A DNA stretch of 64,000 bases from assembly GCA_045640985.1 (NCBI GenBank), contig JAZUFZ010000017.1, positions 18,125 through 82,124 on the forward strand, given 5' to 3'. Made by a program: the position numbers and the translations under genes. A model generated the notes under the pieces. The model had not been told where the DNA came from, did no database searches, and was given only the letters and a program-made list of their open reading frames with translations. Shown in pieces: positions 45,801 to 60,254 of this stretch (positions within the stretch are counted from its first letter, which is position 1; each line of letters begins with the position of its first letter). The stretch comes from Bacteroidales bacterium (GTDB lineage Bacteria; Bacteroidota; Bacteroidia; Bacteroidales; P3).

Positions 45801-48800
45801 GAACTTCATCTTCATCGTATTGAGTTCAGCACCCATCTTAGGCAATGCTGCATAGTTATAGCCGCTGCCGTAGAAGGTCAGAGCCTTGCTGCCGCTATGC
45901 TTGTAGTAGTAAGATCCGGAACTGATTACGTGAGGACGAACACTACCGGTTGAGTAGGTCTTCCAGCAGTTGATTGCGTCAGCATCGATGTCATAAGTAT
46001 AGCCTTCGTAGCTTTCGAAGTCTTCTTCGTAAGGCAGTGCGCTTTCACCGCAGTACTGGAAGCCGTTGCCGGCAACCCAGCGGGAAACAAATTCACCGTC
46101 TTCATCGCAGATAGCTCTTACCTTCCAATTGATGGTAGTTACTGCTACGAGGTCTTCGAGATTATAGTTTTCAGATGCAGATCCTTCAAATACTACCGTA
46201 TCCATACCGTTAGCCCACAGTACATATTCGTAAGATGCGGGATCGGTTTCCGGATCAGGAGTTATACTGAAGTTTACAACGCCCATTTCTTCTCTTACAG
46301 AAGCAACGGCGAGTATAGGCTGACGGCAGAGAGGAGCAGTTGCAAAGATTGCGCTGTTCCACAGAGTGATGTCGTCAGTACCTGCACATGTAGGAGCAAT
46401 ATAGAAGTAGTAGTCTGCGTCAGCAGTGAGATCTTCAAGATCCAAACCGAGAGCAGTTACACTTGTGAGTTCAGCAGCTGCGATACCCTCGATAGTGAGA
46501 GGTTCGGTGCTGAGAACATAGTTGTAATCCAGGTTACCTGCTTCTGAAGGATACCAGTCGATATGGGCTGCATCAGCAGTTACGCCGCTTACATTGATTC
46601 TGTTCACGCGGTTGCAACCAGTGCTTGATGCGAAGCAGAACTTGATGTTTGCGTGTCCTTCTACTCTTCCAGGACCATTACCCTGTGACTGAGGATTTGT
46701 CAAGCTGAATGCGGTACCGTCTTGGTACTTATAGATAGTAGTATAGCCGTCTGTTTCGGTACCTGCTGCAGAATATCCATAGGATGAAGTGTGTGATTCA
46801 CCTGCTGCCTGGTTGGTGATGGTGGCAATTACGATATTGCTCTGGCCATCCCAGAACCATGGAGTAGAGAACTCGAAGGTCATCTCACCTGCTTCGTCAC
46901 CCTCGGAACGACTGATAGGTCCGCATACCTGGGTAAGATTGCTGTGAGGAACCATACCAGCTACAGTTGCACTGGTAAATTCATCCATGCTGGTAGAACC
47001 GATAAAGATATAGAGATCTTTGTTATAACCTGCTTCTTCAGTCCAGGTGTAAGAGATAGATTCGATGCTGCCTGCACCATAGTTCTGGGCAGCCATCTCA
47101 TCAACAGTGATAATCTGCTGTGTATAGCTGTTGCCCCATCCGGTGTAGGTAGGAGCACCGCTGTATTCATCTTCACCGTCACCGATGGTTACGCATCCGG
47201 AAGCAGTACCTGCTGCGGGAACGTTGAAGGATACAGAAGCTTCAGCACTGTTGCCTTCTTCGCACATTGCGCTTACGTAAGCACGATAGGTTTCGCCTGC
47301 AACGGAGAATGGAATAACTGCAGTATTGGTGTTTACGGTCATAATCTGAGCGTTGGCTGAAGAATCTTCAGGTTCGCCATATACCCAGATTACCTGCCAT
47401 TCGGTTTCCTCGCCGAACTCGCCGCGCTCCCAGTTCAGGGATGCTGCCAGAGAGGTTACGTTGGAAACGGTCAGGTTCACAGGAGTAGCACATGCAGGAG
47501 GCATGGTGAAGCTTACTTCCTTCCAGCTGCTGCGTGAGCTGCCGCAAACATTAGTTACATAGATATAGTAGGTTTCGCCTGGAACGAGATCCTCAACATA
47601 AGCCTCAGTTACGGTGAGGTCTGCCTCTTGGTAATCGTCCTCGGTCAGTTCTGCCAGGGCACCGTCTTCGAGAGCTTCGCTGCTGATTACGTATGCGAAG
47701 TTGCCTTCCATACCTTCATAGAAGTTCCAGGTGATGGTAGCGGTGGTAGTACTGGTGATGTCAGCTGCAAGGTCAACAACCGAGCGGCAGTCAGCGAAGG
47801 TTCTGAACATGTATGGAGCCCATACACTGTAGCCTTCTTCATGACCGTTGGCGTTGCAACGTGCGCGTACATATACATAGTAGTCAACCTCTGGATCGAG
47901 ACCGTTGAGTTCGCAAGTGAGTGCGTTGCCGGAGAAGTTGTAGCTGTCGAGAGAATCGATAGTTGCAAAATCAACCACAGCGGTGTCGCTTACTAACACG
48001 TCATAGTATCCAACATAGTCGGAAGTAGAAGAGGTCCAGCTGAGAGTAGCGGAAGAAGAGGTGATGTCGCTTGCTGCAATTTCGGTTGCAGGTTCGCAAG
48101 CCTCATTTTCTTCGCAGATGGTGAAGCGGATGTTGTTGCGTACGCTGAGTACGTCACCGCTTGCGCCAGAAGTTGCAGCATTGTCCGGAGTGAACTGGGT
48201 GCCATCTCTGTACACATATACAGACTTGTTGCCAGTGCAGGAGGTTACATTGTAGGAAGATCCACTGCTCCAGCTGCCGTTCACGTTGTTGATAGCCACA
48301 ACCAGGTTGGAGGTGCCGTCATACATGAAAGGTTCTGCCAGAGTGAAGGAGTTCCAGCCGATAGTGGTACCCATGTGTACATTGTGTGCCACCAGGGTCA
48401 GCTCGCTGCTAGGAACAAAGTCATCGGTACCGGAGAAGGTCGATTGGGTGGTAGTACCCAGGTAGATATCCACCATGCGGTCCTTAACAGCTGCGTTCTG
48501 GATAGCGAATGCGGTGATAGGACCAGAGGTGAGTTCTTCCTTATCGAAGATCTGCTGGCTGTAACTGTAGTCGTATGTAGAGTAGAGAGGCATATAGCTG
48601 TTGGTTCCGCTGCTGTTGCCCATCTGATGTACATCGCAATAGTTAAGAGCCTTGGTCTTAGCGTTAACGCTCAGCCATGCAGGTGAACATTCGTTGCGCA
48701 GATAGAAGTAGTAACCGGTTTCGCGTTCGAGACCGCTTACATGATATACTCTTTCATAGCCTTCACCTTCTGCGGTGATGGTCTGGTATTCAGCAGCTGC

Positions 48801-51800
48801 AAGTTCTTCAGCAGTCAGGGCAACGGTGTCATATACCAGTTGGAAGGTATAGAGCGCGCTGTCTGCGGTGTTGAAGTTGAGGTTCAGTCTCGTACGTTCA
48901 ACCTTATTTGCAGTCAGGCCGTAGAGGGTAGGACAACCCTCGATCAGTACGCGGATTTCCCATTCGGTAGCTGCTACATCCTGGCCGGCAGGCTGCAGAT
49001 ATACAAACTGACCGTAGGTAAAGTCGAGAACGCCTGCACCGGATACAAGTACATGACCTGCAGCATCCAGTACGGTAGCGTTATTGCTTACGCGGAATGT
49101 AGATACCAGATTGGCAATATCTGCGTCAGCACGTACGGTAACTTCGATTACGTGGTTAATAGCATCTATGCTGGTAGTACCTACCTGATAGTCTGCAACA
49201 GCGTAAGAAGTGAAGGTTGCTTCATCGTTAAGTGTACGAACATTTACGAAATTAACAGCAGGCTCGCTGGTGCTGTTGTCGCATACAGCGCGTACGCTGA
49301 ATACATAGTTGGTATTGGCAGTCAAACCACCGAGATTTACATTTACGTTGGTACCTTCAACGGTAGCAGCCATATAAGGAATCTGGTAGGTCTGGCCTGT
49401 CAGTGTATCGGTGATTATCCATGCTACGCATTCGCCAGGCTGTTCCCAGGTCAGATCAACAGAATGAGCATTCACCTGCTGAGCTGCGAGACGGAAACTG
49501 TTAGGACGACGGCAGTCAGGAATGTAGTTCATACCAAAGTTGTCAAGATAGATCCAGTTTTCGCTGGAGCCGACCTTTTCAACAGAGAACATGATGCGGT
49601 CGCCTGCTATCTCACCAAATTCGTCGAGATAGATTTCATAGTTCTCATAGTCGGTTGAGTTGAGTTCGATGGTAGTAAGTTCCTGAAGGTTGGTGATAGC
49701 ATCACCTTCAATAGACAGAGCATACAGTTTTACCTGACCTTCGTAGCTGCTGCTGTAGCGTCTTGCCTTGAAGGTCACCATTGTGGTGTTCAAAGCGGCA
49801 GGAACCACAGGAGTGATGATAGATCTCATGGTATATGTACCATACGCATCAAAGTTCAGATAAGCTGTAGTACCAGAAGTGACAAGTGTAGGTGAAGAAC
49901 CTGCAACACGCCAGCAGCCTAAAGATGGGCTGTCTTGGGCAAACTCATCGAGGAATGGGAGCGACATAGTACCACAGAGTTGGAACTGATCGCCATTGGT
50001 CCAGCGAGAGGTATCGCCTTCGCCGCAGATGCTGCGTACACGCCAGTTGTAGATAGCGATGTTTGGCAGAGAGGTGATTGCAACACTGTCACCTGCTACG
50101 ATGCTGATATGTTCAGCATCTTCAACCTGAGCATTCCAGAATTCATATTCGAATTCCTGAGCCTCGCCGTATTCACCGTCATGAGCCACAACGCAGATTA
50201 CGGTGTCTTCGTTAGCATACAGACTCTTGATGCTTGGAGCAGAGCAGGATGGGAGGGTAGTAAATTCGGTGCCAACCCATTTTGACTCTTCAGAGCAGAT
50301 TGGACGAACATATACATAATAGGTAACGTCGATTACCAGGTCATCGTAGGAGATGGATGGAGTTTCAACAGTTACAGGAGTAGCTTCTGCCAGAGCAGAT
50401 TCGGTCAGAGGCTCTTCGCTTCTTACCACCTGCCAGCTGGTCTCGCTTCCACCGGTGTACCATACTACGTCAGCAGTGTGGCTTGCCACATTCTGTGCCG
50501 TTACATGGGATACTGCCGGGCAGTCGCCTGCGAGGAAGCAGAACGTTACGTTAGGACGATACGTCAGTGTGGTAGTGTTACCTGTTGCGAACGGATCTGA
50601 AACAGTCAGTTGTGTACCATCCTGGTAGCATGCTACAACGGACGTATAGGAAGTTGAAGTGTACTGAGGAGTGAATGAACTACTTGTGGACTGGCTTGTA
50701 CCATCAGGCTGGTTGCTCAGGATACCTACCACAAGGTTGCTTGTACCATCCCATTCAAATGGAGTGGTGAAGTTATAGGTAAATGCTCCTTCACCTTCAT
50801 TAGCACCACGAACGAGAGGTCCGCAAACCTGCGTCATCTGGTTTTGTGGAATACGGTCTGAAGCTGAACCGAAGGAGTTCATAGTGGTAGTTCCCATGAA
50901 AGCATACACTTTCTTTTCAGCAGATGCTGCAGGATAGCTCAGAGAGATAGCGTTTATCATACCTGCATCGAGACCCATTGCGTGCATTTCATCAGCTCTG
51001 AAAAGAATCTGGGTATAGTAGTTACCCCAGTTGTATGGAGCACTGGTAGATCTGCTGGTACCTGTACCAATCTGTGTACAGTCAACCTTTACAGGAGTGT
51101 TGAAGTTCAGAACTGCAGGAGTGATACTTGGGGTACCATTGCAGATAGAGCGGACTTCAAGTCTGTAGTTGGTTGCAGGAGTGAGGTAGGTTACTACTGC
51201 TGAAGGATTGCTTACGGTGAACACCTGAGCATCGCCCATCTGTGCGCCGGTAGAATCAACAGCGTAGCAGGTTACCTGCCATTCGTTTTCATCTGCAAAG
51301 TTTGCAGTATCGCTCTCCCAAGCCACGGTAACACCGGTAGGTGCCTTGTCGGTCAGGTGAACATTGATAGGAGCAGGACAGGATGGAACCATGTCGAACT
51401 CGTAGCATACGTATGGGCTGTTGCCATCGTTGCCACCGCAGACGTTAGACAGATAGAAGTAGTAATGCTGGTCAGGAACCAGATTGCTTAAACCGATAGA
51501 AGTAACGTTCAAACCGCTGGCACTTACATTGTAGTTGTCAGGATTTGGAACTGCAGTAGGAGAAATGATGTAACGATAGTTAGCATCCTGGGTTGCGTCT
51601 GCACTCCAGCTCATAACAGCAGTGGTCTTGCTGGTGAATGCCACTGAAATGTTTTCAGGAGCACGGCAGGCTGCGTGAGTCTTGAATGGAATGCTGTTCC
51701 AGGTGCTGATACCGTCGTCCTGACCTTCACCGTTACACTTAACTCTGATGTAGAGATAGTAGTCGGTGTAAGGCATCAGGTTCTGGATGGTATAGGAAGT

Positions 51801-54800
51801 AGCGTCAAATGCCGTCAGGATTGAGCTTTCAGGCATGTTGGCGAGTTCGTCATCAGTCAGAACGGTAGTATCGATGATAATCTGGTATTCACTTGCATAG
51901 TCACCGTCGGATGACCAGTTGAGCGTTACCACGGTAGGATCATCGTTGTCATAATCTACAACAAGGTCTTTTACCTGAGGACATGCCATATCCAGACCGC
52001 AGTGGTTGATGGCCAGCTGCAGACGGAAGTTTGAGGAAGTACCAACGGAAGAAGACGGCTGGTTGTTGTAGGTATAGTGATCATTGTCACTATATTCATA
52101 ACGGGAAACACCAGAGGTGGTCTGATTACCATAGTAGTAGTTGTAATTACTGCTGTAACTACCCTTATTATCCACGAAAGTAATCACGAGGTTGCTGCTT
52201 CCGTCAAAGGTATAAGGAGCAATCAGTTCGAGATCCTGCCATCCGGTATTTGCACCAATCTGGCCTTCCCATGCGAGAACGGTATTGCTGCTGTTCATGG
52301 ATACCCAGCCGCTGGACAGAGAAGCGGCATCGGTCTTGGTCAGATACATCTGAACTGGACGGATATCGTTTGCAGTCTTACAGTTGATGGAAATAGTGTT
52401 GATGGTAGTAGGCAGAAGTTCTTCAGCCTGGAAGAGCTGCTGTGTGTATGCATAGTTGTAGAATACATAACCTGGGAAATAGCTGCTGTTGGAAGTACTG
52501 GTACCGAGGGTATCGTTTACTACCTCTTCACAGTTGAAGTAACCGAGATTAGGAGTGGTTACAGTACCACTGATCCAGCGGCTCTGGCTTTCACCACAGT
52601 TAGCACGTACATATACATAATACATAGTATCGCGTACGATGCCTTCTTCGCGGGTGAAGGTATAGCGGTTAGCGTTGGTTACTACGATAGGTTCGTTCTG
52701 CTCAAGTTCTGCCTCGGTGAGAGGTTCGTTGCCATAGAGCAGGTCGAAGGAAGTAACGTTTGCATCAGGATTGGTCCATACTGCGGTGAACTCGCGGCGT
52801 TTCACGTTCTCGAAAGTGAGAGCGGTAGGAGTAGCGCAAGGTTCGATGTTCAGGTAGATGGTCCAGAGCTGATAGATAGTAGGATCAGCTGATACTACAT
52901 AAACCTGGAGACCGCCTTCGTAGTTGTAGTTGTTGCTGTTGCTCCAGTTGAATCCGTTCACACCGTCAATCTTGGCGGTTGCGCCGTCGCTTACGCTCAG
53001 GCGGGCACGTACGGAGGTGAGATCAACACCATAAACTACATTTACATTAACAGTATGATTAACGCTGTCGATAACAGCATTACCGATCTGCTGGTTAGCA
53101 TTGTAGAGGCTGAAGGATGCGATATAGGTTGCATCGTTCTTGGTAGTAACTACAACAGAGTCGTTGCTCCATGCAGAATAACCGTTCTCTTCGCCGCAGT
53201 TGCCGCGTACGTGGAGCGTATATTGGGTATTAGGCAGGAGGCCGTTCAGTGTGTAGGATACTACATTAGCGTCATTAGGAGTTACGTTGGAAACGGTAAC
53301 CGTTTCGGTAACGGTCTCGTAACCGTAAGGAGTTACGGTCTGATGTTTGTATTCAATCTCCCAAGTGTCGGCATCACCTACAGTACCGTTGGTCCATTTT
53401 ACTGGGATGCTGTAAGCAGATACACCTGCGAGAGCGTTATATACAAAGTTGGTAGGCTTAGCACAGGTAGCACCGGAAGCAACTACGATGTTGTCGATGA
53501 GGGCAACGTTGCTTGCAGAGGTGGAAGTGCCGGCACCGGTGTAGCGGAATGCCAGACGGACACCGTCAGCAAATGCCATGGTATCAGTGCTGAAGAGGTG
53601 GTCACGGGTGGTCATGCTGCCGCTTGTAGGAATAACCTCAACAGCGGTAAATTCTTCACCGTCGTAAACACCCAGTTCAAGAGTACCGTTGGAAACCTGA
53701 TAATCGAAGGTGAGCATCAGGGAAGCCACTTCGTCATTGAACTCAGGAAGCACTACGATAGAAGGAGCCGTAGTGGTAGCCACCATGGAGAGTGCATAGT
53801 TGGCATTACCGGTCTGGTATGCGAATGCCAGAGGAGCGGTAGTGCGGTTGTTGCTGATTCCCGGGAAGTCGAAGCAGTAGAACACATGGTCAAGATCTGC
53901 ACGGCCGTGGAAATCTTCAGGAGCATTCTGTACGGTAGTAGAATAGCTGATAACGCCGTTGAAGTCTTCGGTCCAAGGCAGTTCAGCGTGGCTGATGGAA
54001 GCGCATCCGGTAGAAGCTACAACAGGATTGCTCCACATACTGTAGTTATTGCCGCATACGGCGCGTACTGCCAGTGCATAGATGGTGCCTGGGAGCAGTT
54101 CTACGTCGTGGGAAGCAAATGAGAAGCCTTCGCGTTCGTCTGGATCATCTACGTCCACCATATCATAGAGATATGCGTTGGTGTCGCTGTTGAATTCCAT
54201 TGCGTTGGCCTCGTTGAAGTTTGCACAAGCCTTATATACTACCTGATAGATAGGACTGTCGTTTTCGTCGTCAATCCAGGTAAGAGGAATATCATTGGAA
54301 GAAATCTCGGTTGCGTCGAATGCCAGTTCAACAGGCTTTTCGCAGAGAGGTTTCTCTCTCAAGGTTACGTCATCGATGGTGATGGTGTAGCTGCCGGCTG
54401 CGGTGTTGTTGTTCACCTTCATGGCTACGAAACGACCTTCACCTTCATAATCGGTAAGGTTGAGTTTGTACTCTTCAAATACAGTAGAATCAATATTAAT
54501 AACGTCAACCAATTCAAAAGTATTGGTATCGGCTGGGTCGCTCATCACACCAATCTGGAGCACACCGTCTGCATTTGCAGAGGAGGTCTTTGCCCAGAAG
54601 GAGAGCTGTACCTGGCTCATTTCATATCCGTCGATAACCTCTGGGAGGATAGCGATGGAGTTCTGGTATGCGCCGGCGTTGCCGTTTACTACAAACTGCA
54701 TTGCATTACCGCTGCGGCCTAAATTGGTAGCAAGCTTAGGAGTGGTGGTAATGGTGCTGTTCGACTGCCAGCAATATACGTTGAAGGTACCTGCTCCAAC

Positions 54801-57800
54801 TTCATCACCGTCGAAAGTGGTGGTGAATGGGAGATCCCAAGGAGCGCAGGAAGTTCTGCCCTGAGTCATGGCATACTGGAGACCGTAGCTGTCGGAGCAC
54901 TGTGCCAGTACGTAGAACAGGTAAGGAGTATTAGGAGCCAGACCAGAGATAGTCAAGGTAGAGTCACCCTGGCAGAGTTCCGATACATAGTCGCCGCTGT
55001 AGATAGCAGTGTTGAATGGATCGAAAGCAAGATAGTTGTCGCTCTCAAGTGCGCGTACTGCATATACCATGTGGCCGGTAGTGAGTTCGCGTTCAGCGTT
55101 ACGGGCATCCTCGGTGAAAGCGATGGTTGCCGTGGTAGGAGTAGCGATTACGAAATCGGCACTCTTCATGCTGAAGCAGTCAGGCTCGGTCACACACATG
55201 CGGAAGCGCATGTTTGGACGGTATCCGGAAGTGCCACGGCTGCTATAGGAGCCTTCATAAGAATAAATACTTGCGCCGGAAGCGGAAGTACAGAGAACGT
55301 ATGGATAGATATAACCCGAACCCTCAATCTGAGCGGTGTCACCGGTTCTCTTAACCTTGATTATGAGGTTGCCGTTGGCAGGATCATATTCAAATGGGGT
55401 GGTCAGCACGATGTCAGCCCAAGTACCTCTGATCAGACGAACCTCACCGCTGTAAACCTGCTGCATTGCCGGCAGGGAGCTGGTATCGGATGCTGAAGAG
55501 AAGGAAGCTCTCGTGTCCTGAGCCATATAGACTTTTACAGGATAGGAAACATCACCGCTGTTGCCAGGATTAACCTGATAGCTGATGCTCTTGATCTGTC
55601 CTGGGAACACATCCATGTTCTCAAGGTCAGAAGCCTTGTAGATAGTCCAGGAAGTTGCATAATCATAGCTGTAATATGCAGGGAAATATCCTGAAGTAGA
55701 GGTACCAGTACCATAAACTACATCACGATAGCTCTGCTCACCGCAATCTACGCTGGTGGAGAAGACAGCCACTGCAGACCAGTCGCCATAGGTCTCATCA
55801 TCGCAGTTGGCGCGTATGGCAACCTTATAGCTGGTCAGTTCATCCAGACCCTGGATGGTGTAGGTGGTATCGCTGCCGGTAGTAGTGAACTCACCGAGCA
55901 TCGTAGTAGGATCGTCTGGGTTGAATCCCTCGACTGGTCCGTAGATGATGGTGTAGTTATCGGCATTCTCCAGTGGATAGCTCCATGTGAGGGTTGCGCT
56001 GGTAGCGTCAGACTCTGCACATGCTACGTCTGTAACTTTCTTACAGGTTGCGATATGACGAACTCTGAAGTTGTCTATTGCAGTAAGATAGTTGCTTGTA
56101 CCTGCACGTGAGAACACGATGCGAGCGTTGCCGGTCACGTCGAGATTGTCGCACAGAATATCCACATTGAAATTAGAATGTGCAGTATAACCAGCCGGAG
56201 CCTCGATGGTGTCGAAATAAACTACGGAGTTGGAACCTTCAAGCATGTAGCCGATATACAATGGGCCACAGGAAGAATAACTCTCAAAGCTCAGGTCAAA
56301 CACCACCTCCATCTGATTCAACGGATGGTTGAATACTGGAGTTGCAAAGGTGTTAGGTCCGTTTACATACAGATATTTTGATGAGAACGTATGGTAGCTT
56401 GAAGCCGTGGAAGCAGGTTTCACTGCTGCCGGATAGCTGCTGCTAAGCGCGATAGGAAGCCAGCACTCAGGAAGGCTGCCTTCCGGATCAGCATTGAAGT
56501 TGTTGGCATAAGGAACATCCAATGCCTGGCATGCAGTGTGAACGCCGAGCAGAGAAACCACTTCGCTGCTGTCGGTTGCGCTGCAGACGCCGCGTACATA
56601 GAAGTCGTAATCCTTGTTAGGGGTAAGACCTTCTACCAGGTAGCCGGTCGTATCCTCTACGGTTACGGTATAATGAACATCATCCATGCCGAATCCTGCG
56701 GTATCGTAGTCGATAATCCATGTGGTTGCCTCACCGATATTATTCCAGGAGAGTTCTACGGTGTTGGAACCGGCATTGGCTACGAGATCGATTGCAGGAA
56801 GACAGGATGGCATTTCAGTAATCTCAAGATCATCAAATACGGTGTAGTATGATGAACTCTCACCGTGAACATCGATGATGATGTATCCTTGAGTGATAGG
56901 AGAAGATGCCAGATAGGCTGAGAACTGGGAATAGGAAGTACTTGTAACGTGGAATACCGTTATAGTATCAAATTCCGGAAGTTCGCCTGCGGTAACGCTT
57001 GGGGCAACACCGATGGTGATGTCACCGAGATAGCTTGTGTTCTCCAGACGGGCCCACAGTGAAAGCTGGAGTTCCTGGAGATTATCAATGAGACGGGCAA
57101 CCGCTACAGTATAGGCATATCCATAGGTGTACATACACTTACCGGTACGGGCACCTGTAGAACTTGCCTGCGGATACTGAGGATCTGCCTGATACAGGAT
57201 AGTCCATCCTGTAGGAATTCCGTCTACGTTATTGAAGTTTTCTGAATAAGGTGCAGCCAGAATACTGAAAGCTGGTGAAGAAGCAAGGTTACTTACATTT
57301 TCAGAACTGCAGTGGCTTCTTACCTGAACGGTATATTCAGTATTAGCAGTCAGGTTGGAAAAATCAGCATAGGTAGTGAAAGGTTCGCATACGACAGAGT
57401 CGATAGGACCTTCAGGACCATACAGGATAGCAGTATAGTAGGTACCGGCATCGGCATGGGAATTTTCCCATGTTGCGTGAACTCCCATAGTGCTATAGTT
57501 AGGAGTTGCCGTTACATGAGCAGGAGCATAGCAGAAATCATCACCGGCTGGAACCATCACGAACTTGGTGTTCGGACGGGCAGCATCCGTACCTGCCGTA
57601 GTAGTGTTGTCAAGGCTTGCATAAGAAGGATCTGAGTCGCTTTCACGATACATCGCCTTATGGTCAGATGTGCTTCCACTATTATAGAATGTCACAGAAT
57701 TGTTATAGGCGCTACCCACATGGGTAACCGTAATAACAATACTGCTGGTTCCATCATAGTAGAATGGAGTAGCCAGTTCCACTGTGAACCACCCGGAGGG

Positions 57801-58163
57801 GACCGTCAGCGGATTGTCGAAGGTTGCCACCTGCGTCAGATCAGCAGCAGGTGTCCAAGCAGTGAGCGTGGTTGACGAGGAAGTACCCATGTAAACGGTG
57901 TACTGACTCGGAATAGAACCAGAGCCATTGACTTGGAACGCAATTGACTGGATGTAGGAAGGAACTTCTCCCAATTCCTCTGAGGTGTAAATCATCTCAC
58001 AACGGCCATTCTTGTAGTAGTTCGTCATAGGGACATAGTATCCCGATGATGTACCTGTACCAATAATGACTTCGTTCTGAGCCATCACAGAGGAACTTCC
58101 AGGCGTTAGCCACGGCACTACCAGCGCCGCTACTAACAACATTCTAAGTAAAAAGTTTCTCAT
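39882..58163 (-). CDS. giant (6,093 aa) T9SS-sorted multidomain surface/adhesin-like protein
   Basis: Single open frame of 18,282 nt. Signal peptide MRNFLLRMLLVAALVVPWLTPGSSSVMAQ. Six unassigned 'A' modules, six adhesin/choice-of-anchor-J-like modules, ~19 FN3-like domains, 26 InlB-B-repeat-like units and a type-A T9SS C-terminal domain. Confidence 0.9.
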   Translation of the reverse strand: MRNFLLRMLLVAALVVPWLTPGSSSVMAQNEVIIGTGTSSGYYVPMTNYYKNGRCEMIYTSEELGEVPSYIQSIAFQVNGSGSIPSQYTVYMGTSSSTTLTAWTPAADLTQVATFDNPLTVPSGWFTVELATPFYYDGTSSIVITVTHVGSAYNNSVTFYNSGSTSDHKAMYRESDSDPSYASLDNTTTAGTDAARPNTKFVMVPAGDDFCYAPAHVTATPNYSTMGVHATWENSHADAGTYYTAILYGPEGPIDSVVCEPFTTYADFSNLTANTEYTVQVRSHCSSENVSNLASSPAFSILAAPYSENFNNVDGIPTGWTILYQADPQYPQASSTGARTGKCMYTYGYAYTVAVARLIDNLQELQLSLWARLENTSYLGDITIGVAPSVTAGELPEFDTITVFHVTSTSYSQFSAYLASSPITQGYIIIDVHGESSSYYTVFDDLEITEMPSCLPAIDLVANAGSNTVELSWNNIGEATTWIIDYDTAGFGMDDVHYTVTVEDTTGYLVEGLTPNKDYDFYVRGVCSATDSSEVVSLLGVHTACQALDVPYANNFNADPEGSLPECWLPIALSSSYPAAVKPASTASSYHTFSSKYLYVNGPNTFATPVFNHPLNQMEVVFDLSFESYSSCGPLYIGYMLEGSNSVVYFDTIEAPAGYTAHSNFNVDILCDNLDVTGNARIVFSRAGTSNYLTAIDNFRVRHIATCKKVTDVACAESDATSATLTWSYPLENADNYTIIYGPVEGFNPDDPTTMLGEFTTTGSDTTYTIQGLDELTSYKVAIRANCDDETYGDWSAVAVFSTSVDCGEQSYRDVVYGTGTSTSGYFPAYYSYDYATSWTIYKASDLENMDVFPGQIKSISYQVNPGNSGDVSYPVKVYMAQDTRASFSSASDTSSLPAMQQVYSGEVRLIRGTWADIVLTTPFEYDPANGNLIIKVKRTGDTAQIEGSGYIYPYVLCTSASGASIYSYEGSYSSRGTSGYRPNMRFRMCVTEPDCFSMKSADFVIATPTTATIAFTEDARNAERELTTGHMVYAVRALESDNYLAFDPFNTAIYSGDYVSELCQGDSTLTISGLAPNTPYLFYVLAQCSDSYGLQYAMTQGRTSCAPWDLPFTTTFDGDEVGAGTFNVYCWQSNSTITTTPKLATNLGRSGNAMQFVVNGNAGAYQNSIAILPEVIDGYEMSQVQLSFWAKTSSANADGVLQIGVMSDPADTNTFELVDVINIDSTVFEEYKLNLTDYEGEGRFVAMKVNNNTAAGSYTITIDDVTLREKPLCEKPVELAFDATEISSNDIPLTWIDDENDSPIYQVVYKACANFNEANAMEFNSDTNAYLYDMVDVDDPDEREGFSFASHDVELLPGTIYALAVRAVCGNNYSMWSNPVVASTGCASISHAELPWTEDFNGVISYSTTVQNAPEDFHGRADLDHVFYCFDFPGISNNRTTAPLAFAYQTGNANYALSMVATTTAPSIVVLPEFNDEVASLMLTFDYQVSNGTLELGVYDGEEFTAVEVIPTSGSMTTRDHLFSTDTMAFADGVRLAFRYTGAGTSTSASNVALIDNIVVASGATCAKPTNFVYNALAGVSAYSIPVKWTNGTVGDADTWEIEYKHQTVTPYGYETVTETVTVSNVTPNDANVVSYTLNGLLPNTQYTLHVRGNCGEENGYSAWSNDSVVVTTKNDATYIASFSLYNANQQIGNAVIDSVNHTVNVNVVYGVDLTSVRARLSVSDGATAKIDGVNGFNWSNSNNYNYEGGLQVYVVSADPTIYQLWTIYLNIEPCATPTALTFENVKRREFTAVWTNPDANVTSFDLLYGNEPLTEAELEQNEPIVVTNANRYTFTREEGIVRDTMYYVYVRANCGESQSRWISGTVTTPNLGYFNCEEVVNDTLGTSTSNSSYFPGYVFYNYAYTQQLFQAEELLPTTINTISINCKTANDIRPVQMYLTKTDAASLSSGWVSMNSSNTVLAWEGQIGANTGWQDLELIAPYTFDGSSNLVITFVDNKGSYSSNYNYYYGNQTTSGVSRYEYSDNDHYTYNNQPSSSVGTSSNFRLQLAINHCGLDMACPQVKDLVVDYDNDDPTVVTLNWSSDGDYASEYQIIIDTTVLTDDELANMPESSILTAFDATSYTIQNLMPYTDYYLYIRVKCNGEGQDDGISTWNSIPFKTHAACRAPENISVAFTSKTTAVMSWSADATQDANYRYIISPTAVPNPDNYNVSASGLNVTSIGLSNLVPDQHYYFYLSNVCGGNDGNSPYVCYEFDMVPSCPAPINVHLTDKAPTGVTVAWESDTANFADENEWQVTCYAVDSTGAQMGDAQVFTVSNPSAVVTYLTPATNYRLEVRSICNGTPSITPAVLNFNTPVKVDCTQIGTGTSRSTSAPYNWGNYYTQILFRADEMHAMGLDAGMINAISLSYPAASAEKKVYAFMGTTTMNSFGSASDRIPQNQMTQVCGPLVRGANEGEGAFTYNFTTPFEWDGTSNLVVGILSNQPDGTSQSTSSSFTPQYTSTSYTSVVACYQDGTQLTVSDPFATGNTTTLTYRPNVTFCFLAGDCPAVSHVTAQNVASHTADVVWYTGGSETSWQVVRSEEPLTESALAEATPVTVETPSISYDDLVIDVTYYVYVRPICSEESKWVGTEFTTLPSCSAPSIKSLYANEDTVICVVAHDGEYGEAQEFEYEFWNAQVEDAEHISIVAGDSVAITSLPNIAIYNWRVRSICGEGDTSRWTNGDQFQLCGTMSLPFLDEFAQDSPSLGCWRVAGSSPTLVTSGTTAYLNFDAYGTYTMRSIITPVVPAALNTTMVTFKARRYSSSYEGQVKLYALSIEGDAITNLQELTTIELNSTDYENYEIYLDEFGEIAGDRIMFSVEKVGSSENWIYLDNFGMNYIPDCRRPNSFRLAAQQVNAHSVDLTWEQPGECVAWIITDTLTGQTYQIPYMAATVEGTNVNVNLGGLTANTNYVFSVRAVCDNSTSEPAVNFVNVRTLNDEATFTSYAVADYQVGTTSIDAINHVIEVTVRADADIANLVSTFRVSNNATVLDAAGHVLVSGAGVLDFTYGQFVYLQPAGQDVAATEWEIRVLIEGCPTLYGLTANKVERTRLNLNFNTADSALYTFQLVYDTVALTAEELAAAEYQTITAEGEGYERVYHVSGLERETGYYFYLRNECSPAWLSVNAKTKALNYCDVHQMGNSSGTNSYMPLYSTYDYSYSQQIFDKEELTSGPITAFAIQNAAVKDRMVDIYLGTTTQSTFSGTDDFVPSSELTLVAHNVHMGTTIGWNSFTLAEPFMYDGTSNLVVAINNVNGSWSSGSSYNVTSCTGNKSVYVYRDGTQFTPDNAATSGASGDVLSVRNNIRFTICEENEACEPATEIAASDITSSSATLSWTSSTSDYVGYYDVLVSDTAVVDFATIDSLDSYNFSGNALTCELNGLDPEVDYYVYVRARCNANGHEEGYSVWAPYMFRTFADCRSVVDLAADITSTTTATITWNFYEGMEGNFAYVISSEALEDGALAELTEDDYQEADLTVTEAYVEDLVPGETYYIYVTNVCGSSRSSWKEVSFTMPPACATPVNLTVSNVTSLAASLNWERGEFGEETEWQVIWVYGEPEDSSANAQIMTVNTNTAVIPFSVAGETYRAYVSAMCEEGNSAEASVSFNVPAAGTASGCVTIGDGEDEYSGAPTYTGWGNSYTQQIITVDEMAAQNYGAGSIESISYTWTEEAGYNKDLYIFIGSTSMDEFTSATVAGMVPHSNLTQVCGPISRSEGDEAGEMTFEFSTPWFWDGQSNIVIATITNQAAGESHTSSYGYSAAGTETDGYTTIYKYQDGTAFSLTNPQSQGNGPGRVEGHANIKFCFASSTGCNRVNRINVSGVTADAAHIDWYPSEAGNLDYNYVLSTEPLTIEGIAAAELTSVTALGLDLEDLTADADYYFYIAPTCAGTDDITLWNSAIFATAPLCRQPILAVASVREEMGVVNFSITPDPETDPASYEYVLWANGMDTVVFEGSASENYNLEDLVAVTTINWKVRAICDEDGEFVSRWVAGNGFQYCGESALPYEEDFESYEGYTYDIDADAINCWKTYSTGSVRPHVISSGSYYYKHSGSKALTFYGSGYNYAALPKMGAELNTMKMKFWRQTESASYGTLTVGYIKEGDNNFNTFTQIQQVSSHNGSMSEVTIDLSEVPEDADRIAFRWYYSNQYSCCIDDIRLYVPQQYNVTLASNDEELGTVEGEGEYVEDSYAYITATPTVGNHFVQWSDENPSASRSLLMNQDYDLTAYFEADLYSVLVRSNDTVMGTATASFDEVGYGAMVDIEAIANEHAYFVAWSDGNEEAVRTIEVVENTVLTAIFAKDSFEVAAETEFEDIEIRGTGMYGYGDSAVLYAPNYYGYQFQNWSNGETEQAIGFRVYDNINITAYYVPDTFAIAAVVDPANAGMVTGTGSYPFNSEITLTAVPAAGFYFNGWSDGEINAERSYTVLYDDTLVANFATEARYTVNALANNDNMGTALGSGIYDANDTVTLTAVPAYGYHFTGWADGDTNLTRQIVATQNADYTANFEINTYNVSIAFASQGFAAMGSISIEGVEGLTTTVEHGTELVLNANATLGNHFESWSDGNTDTARVMIVESDVNLTATFAPNAYIIALHVTPAGAGIVEGADTLNYNSPYTISTTANHGYVFQMWSDSVTTMVRSGQLRENINLTAIYVKDTFHVTVQSADLAMGTVSEDADVAYLGTTTVRATANYGYQFVRWNDGVTTASRRVTVTDDTTLVAEFSAAQFAITVLSANNSMGTVTGSGNYAYLSNAEMTANPRAGFAFTMWEDSITDNPRTVQVEGPATYIAMFEPVDAQYTVTLNTNDATMGTVTGAGTYAVNSYANIEAIPNTNFRFVNWSDNNTEAARRLRVTSDTLLTAIFQPDTHTLNVVSNNVAQGTVTGAGQFVYGTEVTIEAIPAFGYHFNYWSGNSRENPYTFEFTSARNFYMAYFAPDTFTVAVNSTYGTVTGAGRYLYNRTTNIEAIDTNLEDNIVFARWSDGNTDNPRVLTITGDAEYTAIFEEANTTFTITAVANVAERGTVTGSGEFVLSAKDTLEATANEGYEFVQWNDGVVANPRVITVGGDATYTAQFDSVSYNVTLLADAKMGTVEGAGRYVSGRTATISATCTKAGYHFFNWSDGNTDNPRVLTVNEDITLTATFAVDTLTVTASVNDPALGTINGLNAGGRYTYGSYLTLAATANFGYEFVSWNDGNTNNIYQTIVTEDLNLVATFGPREYTINAAAEYAERGTVEGAGSYLYMSEAVLTAVANYGYHFVGWTDGVTDATRTVTVNGPNSYVALFDPNMYTVSVAIDTNMGTCTIEDAQTAYGETAVLTVEPKFGYIFNGWSDGDVANPRTVTVMGDTVLTATFVADSFDITVLAGNDLGTVEGTGRFAYGEEVTISATPLDAQQNSFWYWNDGDTNAIRTIVVEGNATYTAMFGGHTYRVYVTAENGTVSQTNNGMILYGEYDTIHVTPNYGYVFAGWADGNMDSVRVVEVTGNMNLTALFTKMTFAVVVNAAENGTATGSGEYEYESFATLSATADAHYHFTNWSDGATDNPYNYQVLGDATLTANFAIDTHTVTATANNAEMGAVTVTGGVGNQFIYGLYATINAQAAYGYKFVEWSNGETVNPLQILVHSDTAVTAIFAVDQFDINVTCNAIEGTTTGTGSYDYGTTAVIEATPNYGYHFVQWSDNNTENPRNVLVSSDRNFVAQFARNNYTLTLNVDSTYMGTVEGAGTFAFEDTVTITASANHGYHFTQWNDGDTNAVRRVVILSDTAFSAQYARNLYTITTSVNDPELGTVTGAGQYLFGQQVVLTAIPADASVTFTNWGDAVTENPRTITVNDDAEYRANFQRTLQTYTITLQVNDAVMGTVTGGGSYLEGTTAHIAAVANEHYEFDSWSDGNTNAVRDIVVTSNLTLTANFVAMNYMITVSCDATMGTVTGSGSYAYNTTATITATARQGYEFVQWSDGNTNATRTITVTGDAEYVAEFRAVQGIDDVDALDVNIYSTNGNIVVKGAANQSIYIYDAVGRCVNHVAENYSEVNEFTMPTSGVYMVKVGNLPARRVVVVR
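39885..40109 (-). other. region encoding the T9SS type-A C-terminal sorting domain of the giant protein (last 75 aa)
   Basis: IDDVDALDVNIYSTNGNIVVKGAANQSIYIYDAVGRCV...SGVYMVKVGNLPARRVVVVR, the typical Por_Secre_tail pattern. Confidence 0.8.
40110..45557 (-). repeat. 26 tandem ~70-aa InlB-B-repeat-like (Listeria-Bacteroides repeat) units, diverged at the DNA level
   Basis: I parsed all 26 units by eye. Consensus: Y.(V/I)T(V/L)..N....GTV.G.G.Y.......I.A.(P/A)N.GY.F..WSDG.T.N.R...V..D..LTA.F. 5,448 nt / 26 = 69.8 aa per unit. Confidence 0.85.
46632..47195 (-). repeat. giant-protein module A, copy 6 (approximate bounds)
   Basis: GCVTIGDGEDEYSGAP...YTQQII..DEM...PWFWDGQSNIVIAT...HANIKFCF. Confidence 0.55.
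48114..48638 (-). repeat. giant-protein module A, copy 5 (approximate bounds)
   Basis: YCDVHQMGNSSGTNSYMPLYSTYDYSYSQQIFDKEEL...PFMYDGTSNLVVAI...NNIRFTIC. Confidence 0.55.
50535..51080 (-). repeat. giant-protein module A, copy 4 (approximate bounds)
   Basis: DCTQIGTGTSRSTSAPYNWGNYYTQILFRADEM...PFEWDGTSNLVVGI...YRPNVTFCF. Confidence 0.55.
51999..52532 (-). repeat. giant-protein module A, copy 3 (approximate bounds)
   Basis: NCEEVVNDTLGTSTSNSSYFPGYVFYNYAYTQQLFQAEEL...PYTFDGSSNLVITF...NFRLQLAINHC. Confidence 0.55.
55192..55748 (-). repeat. giant-protein module A, copy 2 (approximate bounds)
   Basis: DCGEQSYRDVVYGTGTSTSGYFPAYYSYDYATSWTIYKASDL...PFEYDPANGNLIIKV...YRPNMRFRMC. Confidence 0.55.
57548..58076 (-). 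repeat. giant-protein module A, copy 1 (approximate bounds)
   Basis: VIIGTGTSSGYYVPMTNYYKNGRCEMIYTSEEL...PFYYDGTSSIVITV...ARPNTKFVMV. Confidence 0.55.
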
Positions 58164-58242
58164 AACTTTTTGGATTTAATTAATTAATTGAGTGAATTTT
58201 ATATATTTCAAGGTTTATTTGCATAATACACATATTGAACTG

Positions 58243-58250
58243 CAAAATTA
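58243..58250 (-). promoter_or_regulatory. candidate -7 box (TAATTTTG on the minus strand) for the giant gene
   Basis: CAAAATTA on the plus strand, ~80 nt upstream of the ATG at 58163, inside a ~280-bp very AT-rich tract. Confidence 0.3.
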
Positions 58251-58481
58251 TATACTTTTCAACAAATACGCAAATTTTTTTGTGACTTTTTTTTCATAAA
58301 TTTTTCATTATATTAAATATCAACACTTTATGCTGTTGAAAATTTTTATAAACAGCCTGTTGATAACCCTGCACGATTGTTCATAAGATTTTCCGCCCGT
58401 TTCCTCCCACGCTATATATATAATTTAATGAAACCATAAATAAAAAGTCCCCCGGAACCAACCTCAAAACCGGACAGAAAT

Positions 58482-58560
58482 TCCCCGAAATCGCTCCCGA
58501 AACTGGAGGAAAATCCCCCGAAAACGCTCCCGAAACCGGGAAGGAGTCCCCGAAAAGTGC
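58482..58560. repeat. 33-bp (3 x 11) tandem repeat, ~2.4 copies, of CCCCGAAA/CTCCCGAAA words
   Basis: TTCCCCGAAATCGCTCCCGAAACTGGAGGAAAA / TCCCCCGAAAACGCTCCCGAAACCGGGAAGGAG / TCCCCGAAAAGTGC. Confidence 0.75.
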
Positions 58561-58607
58561 TTATTTTCCCCTCCGGACAGCCCAGAATCCCCTCAAATCA
58601 GGCCCCG

Positions 58608-58724
58608 GGTAACTCCCATATATCTCCCATATATCTCCCATGTAGGTAGCATAAAACACGAATTTTCCGCCGTCCCGGACACAGCCCTACCAGGGAGATA
58701 CCAGAGAGAAACCCGAGAGATACC
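58608..58724. repeat. degenerate 117-bp member of the GGTAACTCCC...palindrome family
   Basis: The left arm GGTAACTCCC(ATATATCTCCC)x2 has TAACT/TATCT at 58610, 58621 and 58632. The right arm has GAGATA/GAGAAA/GAGATA at 58695, 58706 and 58717. Both arms are 11-bp phased. Confidence 0.7.
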
Positions 58725-58735
58725 TCAAAAAAACA

Positions 58736-58815
58736 CCCCGAAAAACCGCCCGAAAACCATCCGAAAACCGCTCGGAAAGAACCCGAAAACCGCCCGAATA
58801 GAACCCGGAAAAACG
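58736..58815. repeat. seven-unit 11-bp phased CCGAAAA-type array
   Basis: The CG of C(C)GAAAA / CGGAAA occurs at 58739, 58751, 58762, 58773, 58784, 58795 and 58806. Spacings are 12, 11, 11, 11, 11, 11. Confidence 0.8.
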
Positions 58816-58821
58816 TCCTTG

Positions 58822-60231
58822 CTACTCCTTATGGAACCACTTGCGGAAGCGATGCCGCCATACCGCCGGATCGAAAAACACAGAATCGGTAGTCGCCTGA
58901 AGGGTCAGCAGAATGCCTATGGGAAGGAACACAAAGGACGAAAGCCACATACCCACCGGCGGAAGCGCGCCCCCGCGGACCGCCTTCTCCGCAATCATGC
59001 CTATCACATAATAAAGCACGAAGAAAAACACCGAAGCCACCAGAGGAACCCCCAGTCCGCCCTTGCGGACGATAGAGCCGAAAGGCGCCCCGATAAGGAA
59101 CATCAGCAGGCAGGCAAACGAAAGGGTATATTTACGCTGCCACTCCACATAGTGACGGTTGATATACTCGGAATCCGACTGGAGAATCTGGTTATAGGTG
59201 CGGATATCGTCGAGGGTAAGACGGCAGACATTCATCGCCTGTTCCTTCACCCGACGTTTCTGTTCATCGCTGTAAGACTGAAACTTAGCCTGGATATCAT
59301 ATACTGTATCGAGTGGCGTTATGCCCCCGTTATGCACACAGATGAAAGCCCGCATCTTGTCGCGTTTGCTGTCGGAAAATTCCTGATAGCGGTGTTCCCG
59401 CGCCTCCTCAAGGGCAGTAATCGTACTGTCGAGCTGCGACACATTCTGCATCTGGCTTCCCCCATGGAAAAACTCCCCGTCGGACTTGGAAAAGGAGAAC
59501 GAAGAGATATCGAAAGTAAGGATTTCCTCATCGAAACGGATGGAAGTCAAGGGGCGGGTATAGAACTTTTCGCCCTCGAACTCCTCGGAATAGGAATAGC
59601 CGTTCCGGAGGGTAAAAAGCAGATACTGACTGTCGGGACTGGTCTGCATGAAACCCGACTTCGCTACTATCACATTGTTCTGGTGAGTCCCACCCGTATG
59701 GTCATAAACGATAATGTCGTGAAGTTCCCCGTTGCTCTCCTTCTGGTTGATGCGGATCACATAGCCGTCGATGTCGGTATAATACTCGCTGGGACGGATA
59801 TTGAGGGCGGGTTTCTTGCGGGTAACATCATAAAGGAGCGTCTGGTATTTCAGCATGGCTACGGGCATCACGTTATTGGCGAAATAGAAGGCTACTCCCG
59901 TGAGAATCAAGGCAAGAAAAGCCATGGGCATCATGACTCTCCGGATAGAAATTCCCCCCGCTTTCATAGCAACCAGCTCGTATTTCTCGCCGAAATTACC
60001 CATAGTCATAATGGAGGCGAAAAGCACCGATATCGGAAGCGCCATAGGGACAAAGGTGGCGGAAGCATAGAACAGAAGTTCCATGATAACTTTGAACTCC
60101 AGACCCTTGCCCACCAGATCATCTATATACTTCCATACGAACTGCATGAGCAGCACAAAGACCGCGATGGTGAAGGTAAGCACCAAGGGCCCGAGAAACG
60201 ATTTCAATATAAGACGATCCAGTTTTTTCAC
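58822..60231 (-). CDS. LptF/LptG-family LPS export permease
   Basis: MKKLDRLILKSFLGPLVLTFTIAVFVLLMQFVWKYIDDLVGKGL is a typical YjgP/YjgQ N-terminus. TM-periplasmic domain-TM layout. Confidence 0.82.
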   Translation of the reverse strand: MKKLDRLILKSFLGPLVLTFTIAVFVLLMQFVWKYIDDLVGKGLEFKVIMELLFYASATFVPMALPISVLFASIMTMGNFGEKYELVAMKAGGISIRRVMMPMAFLALILTGVAFYFANNVMPVAMLKYQTLLYDVTRKKPALNIRPSEYYTDIDGYVIRINQKESNGELHDIIVYDHTGGTHQNNVIVAKSGFMQTSPDSQYLLFTLRNGYSYSEEFEGEKFYTRPLTSIRFDEEILTFDISSFSFSKSDGEFFHGGSQMQNVSQLDSTITALEEAREHRYQEFSDSKRDKMRAFICVHNGGITPLDTVYDIQAKFQSYSDEQKRRVKEQAMNVCRLTLDDIRTYNQILQSDSEYINRHYVEWQRKYTLSFACLLMFLIGAPFGSIVRKGGLGVPLVASVFFFVLYYVIGMIAEKAVRGGALPPVGMWLSSFVFLPIGILLTLQATTDSVFFDPAVWRHRFRKWFHKE

Positions 60232-60254
60232 AGTCTCAGAACGTAATCATAACC

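What the first reader, a model, noticed from the sequence alone, without database searches (positions are those of the whole stretch)
58445..58815. Composite repeat block upstream of the giant gene: 33-bp tandem repeat, degenerate GGTAACTCCC palindrome and a 7-unit 11-bp CCGAAAA array
Three repeat types sit between the lptF/G stop (58822) and the AT-rich promoter tract of the giant gene:
- 58482-58560: 2.4 copies of a 33-bp (3 x 11) unit.
- 58608-58724: a decayed relative of the 119-bp palindrome, with the same first 10 nt and 11-bp phased TATCTCCC and GAGATACC arms.
- 58736-58815: seven C(C)GAAAA units spaced 11 bp apart.

Words such as GCTCCCGAAA and CGAAACCGG recur in the flank of copy 1 (about 897-960). 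The arrangement looks like a regulatory or architectural platform placed ~280-650 bp upstream of the largest gene in the window.
Basis: seen in the sequence. Interest (0 to 1): 0.6.

Follow-up and report, generated by a model that had tools for sequence, protein, structure and literature searches.

The report
11-bp-phased repeat filler beside giant gene
The repeat block is real, but it is one local example of 11-base-periodic repeat DNA that fills many long gene spacers in this rumen Bacteroidales genome; it changes length between strains in whole units and shows no special tie to the giant gene.

Summary
Together they form one 374-bp tract (58445-58818) that holds a single 11-bp register for 34 rows.

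- The middle piece (58608-58724) is not a decayed 119-bp palindrome. It belongs to a second dispersed family with about 80 loci in this 2.23-Mb genome.
- The two flanking CCGAAA(A) arrays are direct relatives of each other and are essentially private to this locus. They rank among the most strongly phased A-tract DNA in the genome, so they are predicted to be curved.
- The genome is full of such DNA. 316 of 676 tandem-repeat loci have period 11, 22 or 33, and about half of the 500-800-bp spacers carry some.
- Eight other contigs encode an identical LptF/G protein. Their block indels are 33, 22, 11, 11 and 10 bp, all inside the arrays. Substitutions there run at or above the 4-fold-site rate, while the AT-rich promoter tract is more conserved.
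- Other species of the genus lack both the block and an orthologue of the giant gene, yet many carry their own 11-bp arrays after lptF/G.

Verdict: fast-evolving repeat filler (a dispersed element plus a length-variable tandem repeat). An architectural, protein-binding role remains possible but is not shown. The scan had already noted this 11-bp habit (e1-4026425, e1-3930515).

The parts
58445..58565 (+). Left A-tract array: 11 rows of 11 bp organised as ~3.6 copies of a 33-bp super-unit (AAAtcCCCCGA AAaCGCTCCCG AAACcGGgaaG). It is a direct relative of the right array.
   Evidence: TRF 58467-58556, period 33. Family D1/D2 copies. Row print. One strain lacks exactly one 33-bp unit. AA/TT phasing in the 99.98-99.99th genome percentile.
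58566..58607 (+). C-rich linker of four 11-bp rows without a clear repeat. It contains CCGGACAGCCC, which recurs at 58674-58686 as CCGGACACAGCCC.
   Evidence: Row print and sequence. 6.4% variable sites among strains.
58608..58724 (+). Copy of the second dispersed palindromic family. Left arm is GGTAACTCCC plus TATCTCCCAT x3. Core is GTAGGTAGCATAAAA...CCGGACACAGCCCTACC. Right arm is three GAGATACC-type units of 11 bp.
   Evidence: nhmmer profile finds 85 hits (about 80 loci) in the genome; the best are C21:7282-7436 and C26:104835-104990. Strains differ by +11 or +22 bp in the right arm.
58725..58818 (+). Right A-tract array: seven C(C)GAAAA-type units in the same 11-bp register as the right arm of the palindrome. 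It ends 3 nt before the lptF/G stop codon.
   Evidence: TRF 58729-58814. Unit starts. Row print. 17.5% variable sites and 11- or 10-bp deletions among strains. AA/TT phasing rank 17 of all loci.
58164..58444 (-). AT-rich tract (about 20-36% GC over most of its length) between the block and the giant gene's ATG. It holds the only TAnnTTTG (-7 box type) on the gene strand, at 58250->58243. Not part of the repeat block.
   Evidence: Composition. Motif search. 2.1% variable sites, below the 3.2-4.4% at 4-fold sites.
58822..60231 (-). lptF/lptG-family permease gene, whose stop codon abuts the block.
   Evidence: Pfam PF03739, E = 3e-75.
39882..58163 (-). Giant 6,093-aa gene downstream of the block.
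   Evidence: ORF list. Only relatives of at most 32% identity in 40 genomes of the genus.

Best explanation
The block is non-coding repeat filler built from this lineage's 11-bp-unit repeat DNA. Its centre is one copy of a dispersed, imperfectly palindromic element that occurs at about 80 loci in the genome. That copy is flanked on both sides by direct arrays of a locus-private unit (CCCGAAAAC-like), which either grew in place or were split by the element.

The arrays gain and lose whole units by slipped-strand mispairing or unequal recombination. This keeps the 11-bp register, and their sequence drifts at or above the neutral rate. As a physical by-product, the A/T patch of every unit lies on one face of the helix for about 34 turns, so the tract should be intrinsically curved.

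The block has no demonstrated, gene-specific role for the giant gene. That gene's promoter lies in the separate, better conserved AT-rich tract.

Shown: the anatomy, the genome-wide families, strain-level unit-number variation, rate differences, and absence from other species. Inferred: the slippage mechanism, the curvature, and the lack of function.
For: Genome-wide abundance:
- 316 of 676 TRF loci have period 11, 22 or 33, and 254 of 322 arrays whose period is a multiple of 11 lie in the non-coding 12% of the genome.
- Strict lag-11 self-identity covers 7.7 kb of non-coding DNA, against at most 0.7 kb for lags 5-10 and 12-21.
- 46 of 95 spacers of 500-800 bp carry such DNA.

The parts of the block:
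- The middle element has about 80 relatives in the genome.
- The CCGAAAA arrays are essentially unique to this locus.

Strain comparison:
- In 8 contigs with an identical LptF/G protein, the only indels inside the block are 33, 22, 11, 11 and 10 bp, and all lie inside arrays.
- Variable sites are 5.2% (left array), 6.4% (linker), 3.6% (palindrome) and 17.5% (right array). The benchmarks are 3.2-4.4% at 4-fold degenerate sites and 2.1% in the AT-rich tract.

Other species and strands:
- The block has no DNA match in 24 other genomes of the genus, and no giant-gene homologue lies downstream of lptF/G in 29 relatives.
- GAGATACC arrays show no orientation bias relative to flanking genes, 14 against 12.
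- No Rfam match, and no RNA fold better than shuffles, z = -1.5 and -0.7.
Against: - The single 11-bp register across three different repeat types, and the tendency of neighbouring arrays elsewhere in the genome to share A/T phase (n = 32, mean resultant 0.47; many pairs are copies of one element, so they are not independent), could reflect selection on helical phase and not mere slippage.
- GGTA recurs at exactly 11-bp spacing in many species of the genus with different filler bases. This hints at a conserved recognition protein.
- All eight strain contigs keep all three arrays. However, they are only about 2-4% diverged, so this says little.
- No expression or binding data exist.
Confidence: 0.6

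Rival explanations
1. Architectural protein-binding arrays. A lineage-specific DNA-binding protein, binding one subunit or dimer per 11-bp unit as ParR does on parC or as winged-helix regulators do on 11-nt direct repeats, polymerises along these arrays. It wraps or bends the spacer DNA. The curved CCGAAAA arrays and the GAGATACC arms together would form a nucleoprotein structure that insulates the lptF/G operon from the giant gene or organises the nucleoid.
For: - One continuous 11-bp register for 34 turns.
- Both flanking arrays are in the top ~0.02% of the genome for phased AA/TT.
- (GGTA N7)x3 occurs 94 times in this genome and at least 20 times in 12 of the 40 other genus genomes, with different N7. 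The counts are 0-2 for N6 and 0-5 for N8.
- The geometry resembles R1 parC, which has two sets of five 11-bp iterons, is strongly curved, and binds one ParR dimer per iteron (PMC2241845).
Against: - Unit sequences in this block are degenerate (64-78% matches).
- The CCGAAAA units lack the GGTA/TACC core.
- The right array changes at 4-5 times the neutral rate.
- No candidate protein was identified, and no par-like genes are adjacent.
- Slippage alone preserves the period.
Confidence: 0.25
2. Dedicated upstream regulatory platform, or length-variable switch, for the giant adhesin-like gene. Curved DNA or a regulator bound 280-650 bp upstream modulates the promoter, and unit-number changes between strains tune expression.
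For: - The position upstream of the gene.
- Strain polymorphism in unit number.
- Predicted curvature.
Against: - The block begins at least 195 bp upstream of the only -7-type box.
- The same repeats occur next to unrelated genes throughout the genome, and a GAGATACC array also lies downstream of the giant gene.
- Changes of 11 bp barely alter helical phase.
- There is no sequence constraint.
- No orthologous giant gene exists in other species for comparison.
Confidence: 0.08
3. RNA-level element. Either the C-rich, G-poor, unstructured plus strand acts as a Rho-loading (rut-like) tract that stops antisense transcription into lptF/G, or the block functions as the 3' UTR of lptF/G.
For: - The plus strand has 34% C, 34% A, 18% G and 13% T.
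- It folds no better than shuffles, at -76 kcal/mol against -140 for the other strand.
- C residues recur at about 11-nt spacing.
Against: - No TAnnTTTG promoter box was found on the plus strand in 58164-58830.
- Both flanking genes are on the minus strand, so their transcripts are G/U-rich.
- Related arrays show no orientation bias.
- No RNA contig covers the block, though this is uninformative.
Confidence: 0.05

Closest known systems
BrickBuilt minisatellite-MITE of Porphyromonas gingivalis (PMC4596501)
   Same: It is also from Bacteroidales. It is a strictly intergenic, dispersed, species-restricted element made of head-to-tail short units with small inverted-repeat ends. Copy number is tens per genome.
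   Different: The unit is 23 nt there and 11 bp here. The element here has two arms around a non-repetitive core. The block adds locus-private arrays on both sides. Promoter activity was shown for BrickBuilt and not tested here.
REP / BIME mosaic elements of enterobacteria and pseudomonads (PMC2817692, PMC3333891, PMC3733652)
   Same: They are abundant extragenic palindromic repeats, often clustered into composite blocks between genes, commonly after gene 3' ends. Their proposed roles lie in DNA architecture, through gyrase and IHF binding (abstracts).
   Different: REPs are 20-40-bp G+C-rich hairpins mobilised by RAYT Y1 transposases. Here the arms are tandem 11-bp units. The genome's single Y1 transposase (C8:3233-4139) is flanked by a different 30-bp palindrome.
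Plasmid R1 centromere parC bound by ParR (PMC2241845)
   Same: It has two sets of 11-bp direct repeats flanking a central segment, intrinsically curved DNA, and one protein dimer per 11-bp unit.
   Different: parC is a single plasmid locus of 159 bp with well-conserved iterons, a promoter in the centre, and adjacent parM and parR genes. Here there are hundreds of chromosomal arrays with degenerate, locus-specific units, no par genes nearby, and no known binding protein.
Bacterial VNTR / minisatellite loci
   Same: They are head-to-tail units whose number differs between strains through whole-unit gain and loss.
   Different: Ordinary VNTRs have no preferred unit length. In this genome nearly half of all tandem repeats share the 11-bp period.

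Membership tests
MITE (miniature inverted-repeat transposable element) | Many dispersed, short, non-coding copies | tested here: met
   About 80 loci match the profile of the middle element. The sister 119-bp family has 53 copies with both termini intact.
MITE (miniature inverted-repeat transposable element) | Terminal inverted repeats | tested here: inconclusive
   The left end is GGTAACTCCC, but the right end is GAGAGATACC, not GGGAGTTACC. The arms are 74% complementary over 23 nt.
MITE (miniature inverted-repeat transposable element) | Target-site duplication and a parent IS with the same ends | tested here: not met
   No duplication is visible at the flanks of the copies inspected. Termini pairs 0.4-6 kb apart are only neighbouring elements, and no enclosed transposase was seen.
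REP/BIME with RAYT | REP copies flank a RAYT (Y1 transposase) gene | tested here: not met
   The only PF01797 match in the genome (C8) is flanked by ATCATCAAGGGGTCTGACCCTTTGATGAT palindromes, not by 11-bp arrays.
REP/BIME with RAYT | 20-40-bp G+C-rich hairpin unit with a GTAG or CGTC tag | tested here: not met
   Units are 11-bp direct repeats. The DNA hairpin of 58600-58730 is weak, z = -1.6.
VNTR / minisatellite | Tandem units with unit-number polymorphism between strains | tested here: met
   Indels of 33, 22, 11, 11 and 10 bp lie within the three arrays among 8 contigs with an identical LptF/G protein.
ParR/parC-type centromere | Two sets of 11-bp iterons on curved DNA | tested here: met
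   Geometry only, compared with PMC2241845.
ParR/parC-type centromere | Adjacent partition genes and conserved iteron sequence | tested here: not met
   The neighbours are lptF/G, an M50 protease, dxr and the giant gene. The iterons are degenerate and fast-evolving.
Intrinsically curved phased A-tract DNA | A-tracts of 3-6 bp repeated in phase with the helix | tested here: met
   30 of 34 rows start with an A/T-rich triplet. The AA/TT Fourier amplitude is at or above the 99.98th genome percentile at period 11.
Intrinsically curved phased A-tract DNA | Anomalous gel mobility or measured bend | not testable with these tools
   This needs a gel-mobility, cyclisation or AFM experiment.
Phase-variable promoter repeat | Repeat lies between or immediately next to the core promoter elements, or inside the ORF | tested here: not met
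   The block is at least 195 bp upstream of the only -7-type box and 282 bp from the ATG.
Rho-utilisation (rut) tract | C>G unstructured RNA on a transcribed strand | tested here: inconclusive
   Composition and lack of structure fit the plus strand. No plus-strand promoter box was found, and there are no RNA data.

The most novel reading that the evidence does not exclude
The block is one visible piece of a lineage-wide system in rumen and gut Bacteroidales of the P3/Colimorpha group. In this system an unidentified protein recognises short cores such as GGTA at exactly 11-bp spacing. It assembles along hundreds of chromosomal arrays, whose coherent helical phase and A-tract curvature let the DNA wrap around it. 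That would be a chromosomal analogue of plasmid centromere or iteron filaments, used for spacer architecture or insulation.
Probability: 0.2. Interest if true: 0.7.

Novelty: new variant of a known kind. Interest (0 to 1): 0.36.

Why it matters
For the giant gene the result is deflationary. Its upstream block is generic repeat filler, so annotation and expression models should place the promoter in the AT-rich 58164-58444 tract.

More broadly, the locus gives direct strain-level evidence on how this lineage's 11-bp repeat DNA behaves:
- It turns over in whole units.
- It drifts fast in sequence.
- It still keeps one helical register over about 370 bp.

That combination is the observation a future search for a binding protein or a structural role would have to explain. 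It also explains why assemblies of these genomes break at such repeats.

Tried and rejected
- **Rfam.** A scan of 57000-60500 at E <= 1 found nothing.
- **RNA folding.** Neither strand of the block folds better than shuffles. The DNA hairpin of the middle element is weak.
- **Terminator scan.** It found only one weak site, no more than expected from shuffles.
- **RAYT/REP link.** Rejected, because the single Y1 transposase pairs with another palindrome.
- **Autonomous parent element.** A search for one with GGTAACTCC ends found none.
- **Orientation.** GAGATACC arrays show no orientation bias relative to genes.
- **Other species.** The block is not conserved, and there is no giant gene next to lptF/G. 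There is no giant-gene orthologue above 32% identity.
- **RNA evidence.** No served RNA run holds this DNA. One metatranscriptome contig of 170 nt hits the giant gene only.
- **Second strain-comparison locus.** Attempts failed. Four flanking proteins had no exact match on record, and the long ENA contig could not be opened.
- **Literature.** A full-text search for 11-bp tandem repeats in Bacteroidetes intergenic DNA found no paper.

Full report
**Setting**

The block lies in the 658-bp spacer between two minus-strand genes. One is an lptF/lptG-family permease gene (58822-60231; Pfam PF03739, E = 3e-75). The other is the 6,093-codon giant gene, whose ATG is at 58163. Read in the direction of transcription, the order is: lptF/G stop, the repeat block (58818 back to 58445), an AT-rich tract (58444-58164, about 20-36% GC over most of its length), then the giant gene.

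The window is contig C17:18125-82124 of a 2.23-Mb, 50-contig, 46.8% GC assembly. The nearest named relatives by LptF/G are uncultured rumen and hindgut Bacteroidales MAGs, 'bacterium P3' and Candidatus Colimorpha. All are at most 66% identical.

**Observation**

TRF finds all three repeat types at the stated places. The repeat finder shows that the units of the left (33-bp) and right (11-bp) arrays belong to one direct-repeat family (D1/D2).

The whole tract 58445-58818 keeps one register.
- 30 of 34 rows start with an A/T-rich triplet, against 5-8 of 34 in the opposite phases.
- Self-identity at lags 11, 22 and 33 is 8 standard deviations above shuffles.
- The right arm of the palindrome runs into the CCGAAAA array without a phase slip.

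Two small corrections apply. The 'recurring words' at 897-960 are one-base variants, not exact repeats. The middle element is not a decayed 119-bp palindrome.

**What the middle element is**

BLAST and an nhmmer profile built from the three best copies (this one, C21:7282-7436 and C26:104835-104990) find 85 hits, about 80 loci, in the genome. Full-length copies share one plan:
- a left array of 11-bp units, either GGTAAGGAGCG-type or inverted TATCTCC-type;
- a semi-conserved core, GTAGGTAGCATAAAAyGTG...ACGGCCyTACC;
- a right array of GGGAGATACCA units.

The 119-bp GGTAACTCCC palindrome is a sister family. It has 53 copies with both termini intact and dozens more with one terminus changed.

**What the flanking arrays are**

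Clusters of C(C)G(G)AAA words at this density occur only here. Weaker versions occur at a few other places, including the flanks of palindrome copy 1. The flanking arrays are therefore locus-private.

Their A-tracts are phased. The Fourier amplitude of AA/TT steps at period 11 in 105-bp windows puts the two arrays 12th and 17th of all loci in the genome, at the 99.98th percentile. They remain above the 97th to 99.9th percentile at period 10.5. From established knowledge of phased A-tracts, such DNA is intrinsically curved. That is an inference here, not a measurement.

**Genome context**

- Of 676 non-redundant TRF loci, 197 have period 11, 112 have period 22 and 7 have period 33.
- 254 of 322 arrays whose period is a multiple of 11 lie in the ~12% of the genome outside long ORFs (the gene calls are crude).
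- A strict lag-k self-identity mask covers 7.7 kb of non-coding DNA at k = 11 and 8.4 kb at k = 22. It covers at most 0.7 kb at every other lag from 5 to 21.
- 46 of 95 spacers of 500-800 bp contain such a stretch, and this spacer ranks about 17th.
- GAGATACC arrays have no preferred orientation relative to flanking genes (14 against 12). They sit nearer the upstream gene's stop, at a median of about 143 nt, than the next gene's start.
- Neighbouring arrays of different unit type tend to share A/T phase (n = 32, mean resultant 0.47, nominal Rayleigh p about 8e-4). Many of these pairs are arms of copies of one element, so they are not independent.

**Strain comparison**

Eight contigs from other assemblies encode an identical LptF/G protein and carry the same gene order, including the giant gene.

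Aligned spacers differ inside the block only by the following indels:
- one 33-bp unit in the left array;
- +11 or +22 bp in the GAGATACC arm;
- -11 or -10 bp in the right array.

The only other indel in the spacer is 1 bp in a T-run of the AT-rich tract.

| Region | Variable sites |
|---|---|
| Left array | 5.2% |
| Linker | 6.4% |
| Palindrome | 3.6% |
| Right array | 17.5% |
| 4-fold degenerate sites of the flanking genes | 3.2-4.4% |
| AT-rich tract | 2.1% |

The block thus evolves at or above the neutral rate, and the promoter tract evolves below it. The high figure for the right array probably includes unit shuffling that the alignment scores as substitutions.

**Other species**

- The block has no DNA match in 24 other genomes of the genus beyond short hits to repeat words.
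- In 29 relatives, the gene downstream of lptF/G is never a giant-gene homologue.
- The N-terminal 600 residues of the giant protein find only relatives of at most 32% identity elsewhere in those genomes.
- Many relatives nevertheless have their own 11-bp arrays just after lptF/G, with other units such as CACCTACCAGA, CCTTACCAACT, TCCCATATTTC and AATCGAAGAAC. Period 11 is again the commonest TRF period in 109 related loci.
- (GGTA N7)x3 occurs 94 times in this genome and at least 20 times in 12 of the 40 other genus genomes, with different N7. The N6 and N8 versions occur 0-2 and 0-5 times.
- Among one genome from each of 80 other Bacteroidales families, only three reach 20 matches.

The 11-bp habit is therefore lineage-enriched, and GGTA is a frequent though not universal core. 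The CCGAAAA units of this block lack it.

**Mechanism**

The simplest account that fits everything shown is repeat filler. A dispersed element sits within locally expanded arrays that turn over by whole-unit slippage. There is no constraint on their sequence and no link to the giant gene. I give this 0.6.

The main rival (0.25) is that the arrays are binding tracts for an unidentified protein that assembles at 11-bp spacing, as ParR does on the two sets of five 11-bp iterons of the curved R1 parC site (PMC2241845). The coherent register and the conserved GGTA spacing favour this. The degeneracy and fast drift of the units in this block, and the lack of any candidate protein, count against it.

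A dedicated regulatory or length-variable switch for the giant gene (0.08) is disfavoured. The block is distant from the only TAnnTTTG box (58250->58243), and the repeats are generic.

An RNA-level role (0.05) lacks structure, an Rfam match, a promoter on the C-rich strand, and any RNA evidence.

**Comparison with known elements**

The closest described relative in the same order is the BrickBuilt minisatellite-MITE of Porphyromonas gingivalis. It has 23-nt units, is strictly intergenic, and occurs 19 times in strain ATCC 33277 (PMC4596501).

REP/BIME elements are the closest analogue for composite extragenic blocks. Membership fails, however, because the genome's only Y1 transposase is flanked by a different 30-bp palindrome.

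A full-text search found no paper on 11-bp intergenic repeats in Bacteroidetes.

Earlier agents of this scan had already reported the 119-bp palindrome in this window and the wider 11-bp habit (e1-4026425), and a similar repeat family in another Bacteroidales genome (e1-3930515). This report adds:
- the identity of the middle element;
- the strain-level unit-number variation and rates;
- the continuous register;
- the A-tract ranking;
- the spacing-controlled GGTA counts;
- the negative RAYT test.

**Verdict**

The giant-gene-specific interpretation is not supported. The block is a new variant of known repeat classes (minisatellite-bearing dispersed elements), of modest interest by itself. The open question is why this lineage holds the period at 11 bp.

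Noticed in passing
G000 contig C8:2995-4145 (outside the window): A single Y1 transposase ORF (PF01797, about 300 aa) is flanked by at least four copies of the 30-bp palindrome ATCATCAAGGGGTCTGACCCTTTGATGAT, with one more copy inside the ORF. There are 12-13 copies genome-wide. It looks like a small REP/RAYT-type system unrelated to the 11-bp arrays.
   Followed up: partly
window 39340-39460: Downstream of the giant gene, a conserved ~80-nt head (CCGGTAAGGCCGTAGC...GTCCC-N5-GGGAC...GGAAGAGGGAG) precedes a GAGATACC array. The same head-plus-array module recurs at 15 or more loci in the genome.
   Followed up: partly
G000 contigs C49:40-220 and C50:7640-7760: C/A-rich tracts of CCGGAAA and CCCTAAACC words lie just downstream of a TAACTTTGCA promoter-like box and just upstream of an ATG. 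They may be unstructured 5' leaders of a mobile-element gene.
   Followed up: no
window 20495-20552 and G000 C31:12475, C17:107526, C29:60529: The TTTTCTCCGCT palindromic array family gives the highest AA/TT 11-bp phasing scores in the whole genome, above the 119-bp palindromes.
   Followed up: partly
L095/L096 4541-4591 versus L097 4541-4613: In a related rumen species, the CCTTACCAACT array just downstream of lptF/G has 4.7 units in two contigs and 6.7 in a third. This is the same whole-unit length variation at the same genomic position with an unrelated unit.
   Followed up: no
window 58819-60246 (+): A 475-codon open frame runs antisense across the whole lptF/G gene. The Pfam match is on the minus strand, so the plus frame is almost certainly spurious. 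It misled my crude gene caller into labelling the spacer divergent.
   Followed up: partly
window 57665-57834: A 170-nt contig from a gut metatranscriptome run (X2) is 99% identical to this part of the giant gene. This is a weak hint that the gene, or a very close relative, is expressed.
   Followed up: no
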